A stretch of 64,000 nucleotides of DNA, from IMG/VR virus record IMGVR_UViG_3300035502_000495, one strand, 5' to 3'. Below, piece after piece: positions 60,166 to 61,248 of the stretch. The number at the start of each line of letters is the position of its first letter. Positions within the stretch are counted from its first letter, which is position 1. Source of the stretch: a virus. Lineage: Duplodnaviria; Heunggongvirae; Uroviricota; Caudoviricetes. Under the pieces are notes generated by a model. The model searched no databases. It was not told the origin of the DNA and saw only the letters and a program-made list of their open reading frames with translations. The position numbers and the translations under genes were made by a program.

Positions 60166-60191
60166 TATATAAAATTATTAAAATGTAGCAT

Positions 60192-60462
60192 TTTTGTCTG
60201 GATTTAGCTTTTTACTTAACCAATATATAATTTTATATATTGTTCAAGTATTTTGCTTATTCCAGACAATTTTGTTAAAATTATTATAAACTTTAATCTA
60301 ATTCTAAGGGATGTTTCATCCACGTAGTGGATGAAATCAGCCCGCATAGATATACTTTTAGACAAATAAGCAATTTTTGTCGGGATTTAGCAAAATACTT
60401 AATGATATATGTAAAATTGCTTGTTAATTATTTTATTATATAGTTAAGTATTTTGCTTATTT
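60192..60462. repeat. cluster of direct/inverted repeats (operator/iteron-like)
   Basis: TTTTGTC(T/G)GGATTTAGC at 60192 and 60375; AAGTATTTTGCTTATT at 60247 and 60447 with an inverted copy at 60391. Confidence 0.55.
60314..60336. promoter_or_regulatory. perfect 10-bp palindrome
   Basis: TTTCATCCAC-GTA-GTGGATGAAA. Confidence 0.55.
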
Positions 60463-60593
60463 TCAACAGGTTTTGCTAAAGTTGTTGGGAGAGTCTTTAG
60501 ATGCGGGTAGGACTATTTTGAAATTTGATTTTTAATTTTTGATATGAGGAACGTTTGAAATTTTGATTTTTGATTATAAGGAGAATGATTGTA

Positions 60594-60683
60594 TGATAGA
60601 TATTATTAATAGAATAATAGTTTTAGGTATTGTTCTTTGCTTATTGATATTGATATTAACATTTGGAGAAGTAGAGGAATAAA
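60594..60683 (+). CDS. 29-aa hydrophobic peptide
   Basis: AAGGAG RBS 8 nt upstream; MIDIINRIIVLGIVLCLLILILTFGEVEE. Confidence 0.35.
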
Positions 60684-60776
60684 TGATATTAGTTATTGCG
60701 GTAGGCGTCGGTGTTTGCGCGTGTGGGGCAATAATAAAAATAAATATTAGAGAGGAATATTTTTTTGTTAGGTAAA
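60684..60776 (+). CDS. 30-aa hydrophobic peptide (tandem to previous)
   Basis: ATG abuts previous TAA; GAGGA RBS; MILVIAVGVGVCACGAIIKINIREEYFFVR. Confidence 0.3.
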
Positions 60777-60784
60777 TTTATTAA

Positions 60785-60869
60785 GATTTGGCGGGAATTA
60801 CTAAATTTTATATATTTGTGAGGATTTGGCTGGAATTAATAAAATAATAAAAATAAGTTGGCGGATTTT
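60785..60869. repeat. iteron-like direct repeats
   Basis: GATTTGGCGGGAATTA (60785), GGATTTGGCTGGAATTA (60822), GTTGGCGGATTTTG (60857). Confidence 0.45.
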
Positions 60870-61080
60870 GTTGATGTTAAGAGTATGAGGGTTAGATAAG
60901 AGAAGGTTATGTTTTAGGTTGGAAGAGAGTGGATAAATATAATATAATATATAATTATTTGAGTGGGTTAGAGTGAAATATATTGTATAATTAGTATAAT
61001 ATTATAGAGAGGTGTTATATAATAATAATATAATATAATATATAATATATTAATTTATATAATTTTAATGGAGTATTTAT
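60870..61080. other. C-free, G-skewed AT-rich stretch
   Basis: About 210 nt on the plus strand with zero cytosines and about 20% G, (AT)n/(ATA)n runs. Confidence 0.7.
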
Positions 61081-61228
61081 CGTATTTAATTAAGTTTAAT
61101 AAGCAGTTTTATATAATTTAGCAAATATTTAACAAACATTTAGGCAGTAGAGGTGCGACCGGTATCAAGGCTCATGCAACCCTGGCCGCGACCATAGACA
61201 CTCAATATTCGCTTTCCGCATTAAAAAA

Positions 61229-61248
61229 AGAGCCTTAGTGAAGGCTCT
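61229..61248 (-). terminator. rho-independent terminator for 61235..61606
   Basis: 8-bp stem AGAGCCTT/AAGGCTCT, loop AGTG; on minus strand followed by T7. Confidence 0.55.

What the first reader, a model, noticed from the sequence alone, without database searches (positions are those of the whole stretch)
60166..61230. Repeat-rich non-coding region with a 210-nt cytosine-free stretch is a candidate origin or packaging site
Downstream of the plus-strand regulator block there is about 1 kb without substantial ORFs. It contains duplicated 17-nt and 16-nt repeats with an inverted copy (60192-60462), a perfect 10-bp palindrome (60314-60336), two tandem tiny hydrophobic peptide ORFs, and three iteron-like GATTTGGC(G/T)GGAATTA repeats (60785-60869). 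It also holds a stretch from 60870-61080 with no C at all on the plus strand but about 20% G, made of (AT)n/(ATAATA)n runs. Extreme local GC skew plus iterons plus an AT-rich unwinding element next to regulators is typical of replication origins; a pac or cos region is the alternative.
Basis: seen in the sequence. Interest (0 to 1): 0.6.

Follow-up and report, generated by a model that had tools for sequence, protein, structure and literature searches.

The report
Conserved origin-like non-coding module in phage
A 1-kb gene-free stretch of a large uncultured gut or rumen phage holds a conserved set of palindromes, short phased repeats lacking cytosine on one strand, an easily melted AT-rich patch and a unique GC-rich box, always placed just after the gene for a DNA-binding protein; it looks most like a replication origin, but that is inferred, not shown.

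Summary
Window 60166-61234 is the largest gene-free gap outside the tRNA cluster. It holds a 218-nt cytosine-free run (60863-61080; 44 G, 0 C) that no Markov simulation reached.

Their 16-bp half-site recurs as direct copies only in this region.

The layout recurs in about 30 uncultured relatives, down to about 45% protein identity:
- a 254-aa gene encoding several winged-helix domains;
- nested palindromes with an (AT)n centre;
- C-depleted, G-rich short repeats with ~10-bp periodicity;
- a single-copy box, GGTG[GC]N0-7CCGA;
- about 40 nt that are G-poor and C-rich.

I found no Rfam match, no covariation supporting an RNA fold, and no DnaA-box enrichment. No large contig ends at the site, and the GC skew shows no genome-scale inflection here, because skew follows transcription direction.

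Some Herelleviridae have comparable gene-free zones proposed as origins: C-free (TAGGA)n plus an AT-rich patch in Listeria phages, and direct repeats in phage K. These share no sequence similarity with this region.

Best reading: an iteron-type origin served by the adjacent protein (confidence about 0.4). Rivals are an operator/terminator region, a non-coding RNA, a packaging site and a Rho loading site.

The parts
58281..58309 (+). Consensus sigma-70-type promoter (TTGACT-17-TATAAT) of the short plus-strand operon that ends in the region
58350..59241 (+). Four small ORFs (56, 62, 65 and 112 aa). Two have helix-turn-helix-like N-termini. No family match.
59401..60165 (+). 254-aa protein with tandem winged-helix domains. 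It belongs to a compact phage-only family and is the candidate binder of the sites downstream.
60181..60282 (.). Palindrome 1. Outer half-site TTTGTCTGGATTTAGC, inner CTTAAC/GTTCAAG, (AT)n centre. It is the most widely conserved non-coding piece.
60314..60336 (.). Perfect 10-bp stem with a 3-nt loop, TTTCATCCAC GTA GTGGATGAAA. Conserved in near relatives only.
60369..60477 (.). Palindrome 2, a duplicate of palindrome 1 lying 183-200 nt downstream of it
60509..60575 (+). Two ~29-nt direct repeats, 38 nt apart, ahead of the first tiny ORF. In relative L007 the matching sequence leads into a 91-aa ORF.
60593..60775 (+). Two abutting tiny hydrophobic ORFs (29 and 30 aa) with Shine-Dalgarno sites. 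Found only in this lineage, so probably accessory.
60773..60843 (+). Two 33-nt direct repeats, 38 nt apart (cores GATTTGGCGGGAATTA at 60785 and GATTTGGCTGGAATTA at 60823). 60815-60830, TTTGTGAGGATTTGGC, is a direct copy of the palindrome half-site.
60863..61080 (+). 218-nt run with no C on the plus strand and 20% G
60932..61131 (.). Least stable 200-bp duplex of the 64-kb window by nearest-neighbour energy; candidate unwinding element. The margin over the next regions is small.
61116..61142 (+). 2.5 copies of an 11-nt repeat (ATTTAGCAAAT / ATTTAACAAAC / ATTTAGG) that carries the half-site core ATTTAGC
61152..61162 (+). Conserved single-copy box GGTGCGACCGG (family consensus GGTG[GC]N0-7CCGA). 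Strand composition switches here from G-rich to C-rich.
61163..61222 (+). Tail after the box, ending in TTTCCGCATT (relatives have 2-3 CCGT/CGTT motifs here). In W itself G and C are roughly balanced here (61146-61215: 17 G, 20 C); the G-poor, C-rich composition is the average over relatives.
61227..61250 (.). Bidirectional intrinsic terminator (10-bp stem, A-run before and T-run after). It overlaps the stop of the convergent minus-strand gene 61235-61606.

Best explanation
The region is a replication-origin-like module that belongs with the 254-aa winged-helix protein encoded immediately upstream.

Proposed mechanism (inferred):
1. The protein binds the two nested palindromes, probably as dimers. 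This could also give autoregulation, as the inverted repeats do in pSC101/pPS10-type replicons.
2. It also binds the helically phased direct copies of the same half-site, forming a bent nucleoprotein complex.
3. That complex strains the adjacent weakly paired AT-rich tract (60932-61131) until it opens.
4. The unique GGTG...CCGA box at the edge of the AT-rich tract marks where helicase loading or priming begins.

The total lack of C on one strand has two sources. The site consensus (TTGTNNGGATTT) lacks C. In addition, the plus strand may be the one repeatedly left single-stranded, so that C-to-U deamination has removed its cytosines.

Shown: the anatomy, its conservation and the linkage to the gene. 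Inferred: protein binding, unwinding and initiation.
For: - Linkage: the palindromes lie directly after the gene in all loci that have downstream sequence. The box lies 210-1460 nt after it, once per locus and always on the plus strand.
- Site cluster: TTGTNNGGA occurs 8 times in 64 kb, 5 of them in this 1 kb (P about 2e-9, motif chosen post hoc). GATTTRGC occurs 10 times, 4 of them here, all on the plus strand. The 16-mer half-site with up to 3 mismatches hits 5 times, 4 of them here.
- Phasing: mean autocorrelation over 26-30 loci peaks at lags 10, 20 and 28-30 only upstream of the box, not in control segments. This fits DNA helical phasing.
- Melting: 60932-61131 is the least stable 150-200-bp duplex of the window.
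- Protein: tandem winged-helix domains. There are faint, sub-threshold resemblances to lambda O, RepL, DnaD-like proteins and replisome organizers.
- Precedent: non-coding zones with C-free (TAGGA)n plus an AT-rich patch in Listeria phage CKA15, and direct repeats in phage K. Both are untranscribed and both are proposed origins. The same zone is seen in phage A511.
Against: - There is no direct evidence of initiation.
- DnaA boxes are not enriched.
- Neither skew nor gene orientation diverges at the site.
- The lead of the AT-rich tract in duplex instability is small: -193.6 against -197.4 kcal/mol.
- The cross-lineage test that the repeat units match each lineage's own palindrome half-site was weak: 256 forward hits against 200 in shuffles.
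- The region lies inside a transcription unit with no terminator before 61227, so it may be transcribed.
- The Herelleviridae precedents are themselves only proposals and share no homology with this region.
Confidence: 0.4

Rival explanations
1. Transcriptional control region. The palindromes are operators of the winged-helix protein, for autoregulation or an early-to-middle switch. The box with its C-rich partner forms the terminator or roadblock that ends the plus-strand early operon where it meets the convergent minus-strand early genes.
For: - The region lies between a consensus plus-strand promoter (58281) and a bidirectional terminator (61227-61250), facing minus-strand genes that have consensus promoters.
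- In several relatives the G-rich arm, the box loop and the C-rich arm fold into a hairpin followed by a U-run. L029 looks like a textbook terminator.
- The composition switch sits exactly where sense strands converge.
- Near relatives have ORFs between the palindromes and the box that would need a promoter.
Against: - The box is single-copy and conserved in primary sequence, unlike generic terminators.
- No sigma-70-type promoter fits inside the palindromes (and reading of the sequence).
- The hairpin has no covariation support: 53.7% of cells paired against 51.9% in shuffles.
- The 10-bp phased repeats and the extreme C depletion are not explained by this reading.
- In compact relatives there is no ORF for the palindromes to control.
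Confidence: 0.2
2. A plus-strand non-coding RNA, or a long 3' UTR. The cytosine-free repeat tract would be an unstructured platform that Rho cannot load on, serving a repeat-binding protein or acting as a sponge. The box region would be its 3' structured end.
For: - There is no terminator between the winged-helix gene and 61227, so read-through is likely.
- An RNA without C cannot form G-C pairs and lacks Rho loading sites (established knowledge).
- The 3' module TTTCCGCAWT + A-run + terminator also ends a separate candidate small RNA that has its own perfect promoter, at 63911-64045.
- Hairpins with G-U pairs on the plus strand are seen in L037 and L029.
Against: - No Rfam match even at E up to 10.
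- RNAalifold finds no consensus structure, and there is no covariation.
- The excess of G-U over A-C pairs in the palindromes (72 against 35) is below what base composition alone predicts, 2.8 to 1.
- A 10-bp periodicity has no obvious meaning for RNA.
- No dedicated promoter was found.
- The analogous zone in Listeria phage CKA15 is transcriptionally silent.
Confidence: 0.15
3. A packaging or terminus recognition site (pac, cos, or a terminal-repeat boundary). The repeats would bind terminase and the GC-rich box would be the cut site.
For: - The site is unique and orientation-specific, flanked by phased repeats, as lambda cosN-cosB and the repeat arrays beside the T7 terminal repeat are (author's knowledge).
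- The box resembles the lambda cohesive end GGGCGGCGACCT in its CGACCT core (a resemblance recalled from memory, not tested).
- The flanking small minus-strand genes look like host-takeover genes, which lie in or near the long terminal repeats of Herelleviridae.
Against: - No terminase gene lies nearby in the window.
- Contigs of 115-141 kb from relatives carry the site internally, at varied positions.
- No contig ends at the box.
- In phage A511 the analogous zone lies 7 kb from the terminal-repeat boundary.
Confidence: 0.1
4. A Rho-dependent backstop terminator for minus-strand transcripts. Read on the minus strand, the tract is 218 nt with no G and 20% C, an ideal Rho loading site placed just past the intrinsic terminator of the convergent gene. 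This could coexist with any of the other readings.
For: - The composition fits.
- The C-rich, G-free tandem units in relatives carry a regularly spaced UC dinucleotide.
- The position is right after 61227-61250 on the minus strand.
Against: - A strong intrinsic terminator already precedes it.
- This reading does not explain the palindromes, the conserved box or the linkage to the winged-helix gene.
- The host is unknown, so the presence of Rho is unknown.
Confidence: 0.05

Closest known systems
Iteron-type theta origins with a winged-helix initiator (lambda ori with O protein; pSC101/pPS10/R6K-type plasmid origins; SaPI ori just 3' of its rep gene)
   Same: - A cluster of repeated binding sites beside the gene for a winged-helix DNA-binding protein.
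- Inverted copies and direct copies of one site.
- Helical phasing.
- An adjacent AT-rich, easily melted tract followed by a GC-rich or palindromic element, the same order as in lambda ori.
   Different: - The protein family is not detectably homologous to O, RepA, RepL or SaPI Rep.
- The repeats are short (9-16 bp), variable in number and strictly free of C on one strand.
- There is no cluster of DnaA boxes.
- The conserved GGTG...CCGA box has no counterpart.
- Function is untested.
Non-coding repeat zones of Herelleviridae proposed as origins (Listeria phages CKA15/P100/A511; Staphylococcus phage K)
   Same: - About 1 kb gene-free zone in a dense genome of about 140 kb, near early genes.
- Tandem repeats that are G-rich and free of C on one strand: (TAGGA)27 and (TAGGA)33 in CKA15, (GGATA)13 in A511.
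- Further dispersed iteron-like repeats and an AT-rich patch.
- The neighbouring AAA ATPase is 45% identical to a conserved Herelleviridae protein.
   Different: - No sequence similarity in the zone.
- The adjacent A511 gp170 (252 aa) is not detectably related to the 254-aa protein (hhalign probability 1%).
- Gene orientation differs.
- No nested palindromes or GGTG...CCGA box were seen in A511.
- Those origins are also only proposals.
Herpes simplex virus oriS/oriL
   Same: Large palindrome with an (AT)n centre flanked by inverted initiator-binding sites, present in two copies.
   Different: Eukaryotic virus with an unrelated initiator (UL9 helicase). This is an analogy of design only, recalled from established knowledge.
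Lambda cos (cosN-cosB) and the short-repeat arrays beside the T7 terminal repeat
   Same: A unique GC-rich site next to phased protein-binding repeats.
   Different: No adjacent terminase gene. The site is internal in the assembled contigs of relatives.

Membership tests
Iteron-type replication origin | Several direct repeats of one protein-binding site, helically phased | tested here: met
   The half-site motif is clustered only in this region. The ~10-bp periodicity upstream of the box holds across 26-30 loci and is absent in controls. In W itself the clear direct copies are few (2-3).
Iteron-type replication origin | Adjacent AT-rich DNA unwinding element | tested here: inconclusive
   60932-61131 is the least stable 200-bp duplex of the window, but only by about 4 kcal/mol over the next candidate. 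Unwinding itself cannot be tested here.
Iteron-type replication origin | A cognate initiator encoded nearby that binds the repeats | not testable with these tools
   A winged-helix protein is encoded directly upstream in all relatives. Fold hits are generic. Hits to Phage_rep_O, RepL and DnaD-like families are all below their cut-offs.
Iteron-type replication origin | Replication initiates there (autonomous replication, marker frequency) | not testable with these tools
   No reads and no experiments were available.
Iteron-type replication origin | Host initiator sites (DnaA boxes); present in many members but not all | tested here: not met
   There are 28 matches with up to 1 mismatch in 64 kb, against 21 expected by chance. 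Only one lies in the region.
Herelleviridae proposed origin zone | Gene-free zone of about 1 kb with tandem repeats and an AT-rich patch near early genes | tested here: met
   Comparison with phage A511, locus L061, and with PMC12282133.
Herelleviridae proposed origin zone | Sequence or protein homology to the Listeria or Staphylococcus phage zones | tested here: not met
   No blastn or tblastn match in 50,697 phage records. hhalign against A511 gp170 gave probability 1%.
Herelleviridae proposed origin zone | Transcriptionally silent during infection | not testable with these tools
   No expression data exist for this uncultured phage.
cos/pac packaging site | Coincides with the physical genome ends | tested here: inconclusive
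   Contigs of 115-141 kb carry the site internally at varied positions. Assemblies of terminally redundant genomes can be circularly permuted, so this is weak evidence.
cos/pac packaging site | Lies next to the terminase genes | tested here: not met
   None of the 20 flanking ORFs scanned against PHROGs is a terminase.
Structured non-coding RNA | Conserved secondary structure with covariation, or a match to a known family | tested here: not met
   No Rfam match. RNAalifold predicts 0 pairs. The named hairpin does no better than the shuffled and slid controls.
Rho-dependent terminator (rut site), minus strand | At least 80 nt that are C-rich, G-poor and unstructured, downstream of a gene | tested here: met
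   218 nt with no G and 20% C on the minus strand, just past the terminator of gene 61235-61606. Dependence on Rho cannot be tested.

The most novel reading that the evidence does not exclude
The C-free tract and the box form a strand-specific, transcription-primed origin. Read-through RNA from the early operon contains no C, so it cannot fold stably and Rho cannot load on it. It invades the weak AT-rich duplex as a persistent R-loop. The GGTG...CCGA box is the fixed point where the RNA primer is handed to the DNA polymerase. The displaced plus strand, repeatedly single-stranded, has lost its cytosines by deamination. This would be a ColE1-, T7- or mitochondrial-style priming device, in a new sequence form, shared by a whole clade of large gut and rumen phages.
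Probability: 0.12. Interest if true: 0.75.

Novelty: new variant of a known kind. Interest (0 to 1): 0.45.

Why it matters
Origins of replication are unmapped for most large virulent phages of Gram-positive-like hosts, including the SPO1-like Herelleviridae, where only sequence-based proposals exist. This module gives a sharply defined, testable candidate:
- a protein family of 277 clusters at 50% identity;
- its probable binding sites;
- a single-copy conserved box.

It covers a widespread clade of uncultured phages of about 115-150 kb from animal guts.

It also shows that complete loss of one base on one strand can mark a functional non-coding element. That makes it a simple signature to scan for in other phage genomes.

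If the element proves to be an origin, it would allow replicon construction and coverage-based activity estimates for these phages. If it proves to be an RNA or a terminator device, it would be an unusual one.

Tried and rejected
- blastn and tblastn of the region and of the 254-aa protein against 50,697 phage records: no match.
- Scans of viral contigs with the two flanking proteins: nothing.
- Rfam, at gathering thresholds and at E up to 10: only tRNAs elsewhere and one chance-level hit.
- tRNA or tmRNA in the region: none.
- DnaA boxes: not enriched.
- RNA consensus fold of the box region: none. My own hairpin model does no better than the controls.
- G-U versus A-C asymmetry in the palindromes as a test for RNA: the bias is explained by base composition.
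- Sigma-70 promoters inside the palindromes or just ahead of the box: none convincing (and manual reading).
- Remnants in W of the small ORFs that relatives carry between the palindromes and the box: none.
- Cross-lineage test that the repeat units equal each lineage's palindrome half-site: too noisy, 256 against 200.
- Homology of the 254-aa protein to A511 gp170: none.
- Host inference from MAG bins: inconsistent.
- Whole-genome cumulative skew and terminus mapping could not be done, because only 64 kb plus flanks of up to 20 kb are accessible.

Full report
CONTEXT. The window is about 29% G+C and comes from a large phage. It encodes both subunits of topoisomerase II, a DNA ligase, an RNA ligase, a 2144-aa protein and 14-16 tRNAs. 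It also carries a diversity-generating retroelement. The AAA ATPase at 57055-58170 is about 45% identical to a conserved protein of Herelleviridae such as Enterococcus phage EF24C. Nothing else near the finding matches any cultured phage. Almost all genes lie on the minus strand. The finding sits at the end of a small plus-strand island, 58350-61234. A consensus promoter at 58281-58309 drives this island, and a bidirectional terminator at 61227-61250 closes it, facing small minus-strand genes that have near-perfect promoters.

OBSERVATION.
- The cytosine-free run is 60863-61080: 218 nt, 44 G and 0 C. It is the longest single-base-free run in the window. None of 3000 Markov simulations reached it (maximum 145).
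- Other long G-free runs, the mirror case for minus-sense genes, are just AT-rich spacers with 5-10% C. Here G is 20%.
- The 300-nt skew reaches +0.88, against an absolute maximum of 0.69 elsewhere.
- The duplicated 16- and 17-mers are the arms of two nested palindromes, 60181-60282 and 60369-60477. Their single-strand fold z-scores are -5.5 and -5.2.
- The quoted iteron has two exact copies, not three.

WHAT THE REPEATS ARE. The outer half-site of the palindromes is TTTGTCTGGATTTAGC. With up to 3 mismatches it occurs five times in 64 kb. The cores are strongly clustered. TTGTNNGGA occurs 8 times in the window, 5 of them here. GATTTRGC occurs 10 times, 4 of them here, all on the plus strand. 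These P values are post hoc. An 11-nt repeat carrying ATTTAGC lies just before 61152. The region is therefore a local array of one composite site, in inverted and direct orientation. That is the usual signature of a DNA-binding protein's target cluster.

CONSERVATION. I fetched more than 50 related loci.
- Palindrome 1 is the best-conserved non-coding piece, for example 83% identity over 83 nt to a relative whose protein is 63% identical. It always lies directly after the gene. Its inner arms keep their symmetry through paired changes, such as CGAA...TTCG, GGAA...TTCC and CCAA...TTGG.
- Further downstream, 210-1460 nt after the gene, every locus with enough sequence has one plus-strand copy of a box, GGTG[GC]N0-7CCGA. 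In the window it occurs only at 61152.
- Averaged over 26 loci, the 240 nt before the box have 19-32% G and 5-11% C. The 20 nt after the box region have 7% G and 33% C.
- The tract before the box consists of short tandem repeats whose unit differs between lineages: GAAATTGTGGAGTTGT, GTAAATGCT, AATAGGTAATAATT and others. Copy number differs even between close relatives.
- The mean autocorrelation of that tract peaks at lags 10, 20 and 28-30. Control segments show no such pattern.
- The window's 218-nt run is the extreme case of this family trait. Relatives have C-free runs of 75-139 nt at the same place.
- Near relatives carry two or three small ORFs, one a zinc ribbon, between the palindromes and the box. 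The window has two tiny hydrophobic ORFs and a longer repeat tract instead, with no remnants of those ORFs.

RNA OR DNA? In several relatives the G-rich sequence before the box and the C-rich sequence after it can pair, sometimes followed by a U-run. However:
- RNAalifold finds no consensus structure;
- my explicit hairpin does no better than the shuffled or slid controls;
- Rfam finds nothing;
- the G-U excess in the palindromes is below what composition predicts.

The ~10-bp periodicity and the symmetric protein-type sites point to a function at the DNA level. Transcription of the region cannot be excluded, because no terminator precedes 61227.

ORIGIN-SPECIFIC CHECKS.
- The AT-rich part, 60932-61131, is the least stable 150-200-bp duplex of the window, though narrowly.
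- DnaA boxes are not enriched.
- The skew argument fails. Skew in this window follows gene direction, as the second plus-strand island at 20-24 kb shows. Both flanks of the region are minus-sense, and the local switch has the polarity of convergence, not of an origin.
- Large contigs of relatives carry the site internally, which gives no support to a cos or pac site.

LITERATURE. In Listeria phage CKA15 (P100-like, Herelleviridae) a 1.2-kb gene-free, transcriptionally silent zone begins with (TAGGA)27 and (TAGGA)33 and contains a 185-bp patch of 80% AT. The authors propose it as the origin (PMC12282133). In phage K, two 28-bp direct repeats in an untranscribed gap are proposed likewise (PMC11598898). 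I confirmed the zone in phage A511: (GGATA)13 plus six CTAAGTAGCNGGYTAYA repeats, after gp170 and gp171. These repeats are also G-rich and free of C on one strand. There is no sequence or protein homology to the present module.

VERDICT. This is a real, strongly conserved cis-element module tied to a winged-helix protein. The best-supported mechanism is an iteron-type origin, with confidence about 0.4. The main rivals are an operator/terminator region (0.2), a non-coding RNA (0.15), a packaging site (0.1) and a Rho loading site that could coexist with any of these (0.05). It works like known iteron origins and resembles the proposed Herelleviridae origin zones in design, but it is not a sequence-level member of any described family. 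I classify it as a new variant of a known kind, of moderate interest.

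Noticed in passing
window 20498-24248: Complete diversity-generating retroelement. Reverse transcriptase at 23007-24248. Variable repeat at 22027-22123, inside the 3' end of a 554-aa tail-like ORF. Template repeat at 22683-22779, 85% identical, with the differences at template adenines. A 104-aa accessory ORF lies at 22184-22498.
   Followed up: partly
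window 32627-49262: tRNA cluster (14 by ARAGORN, 16 by Rfam) beside a phrog_850 'RNA-binding protein' and an RNA ligase. A CKA15 RNA-binding gene placed similarly beside tRNA genes has a Ro60-related (Rsr) best HHpred match in the Listeria phage paper. Y-RNA-like genes may lie among the tRNAs; none reached Rfam thresholds.
   Followed up: no
window 63911-64000, continuing in L001 14511-14650: Candidate small plus-strand RNA of about 95 nt: a perfect TTGACA-17-TATAAT promoter, a GC-rich hairpin, TTTCCGCAAT, an A-run and a bidirectional terminator. The same 3' module (TTTCCGCATT, A-run, terminator) ends the finding region at 61213-61250.
   Followed up: partly
window 61867-61990: Two copies of TCAAAYAACTAGCRAAAA, each followed by a GC-rich segment, upstream of consensus minus-strand promoters. 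A similar pair is present in relative L014.
   Followed up: no
L037 4600-4730, L048 4590-4700, L022 2950-3010, L023 4610-4650, L025 4690-4730: In distant relatives a perfect consensus plus-strand promoter follows the box. In L037 and L048 it is followed by a long perfect hairpin; a 55-56-aa ORF follows in L037, L023 and L025. This may be a lineage-specific small transcription unit.
   Followed up: no
window 60593-60775: Two abutting tiny hydrophobic ORFs (29 and 30 aa) with good ribosome-binding sites, found only in this lineage. They could be small membrane peptides or type I toxin-like genes.
   Followed up: partly
L005 6306-6617, L007 2342-2617, L013 4813-5169: Relatives encode a conserved small zinc-ribbon protein (CxxC...CPxCG, 91-118 aa) between the palindromes and the box. 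It is absent from the window.
   Followed up: partly
L002, L007, L008 (contig ends): Three independent contigs of close relatives end 0.6-1 kb upstream of the winged-helix gene, and the genes there differ between L007 and L008. This suggests a hypervariable segment or an assembly breakpoint near the divergent promoters at about 58.2-58.8 kb.
   Followed up: no
L062-L066: MAG bins that contain this phage family are assigned to unrelated taxa (Erysipelotrichaceae, Gastranaerophilales, Muribaculaceae, Eubacteriales). The host therefore remains unknown, and the binning is probably artefactual.
   Followed up: no
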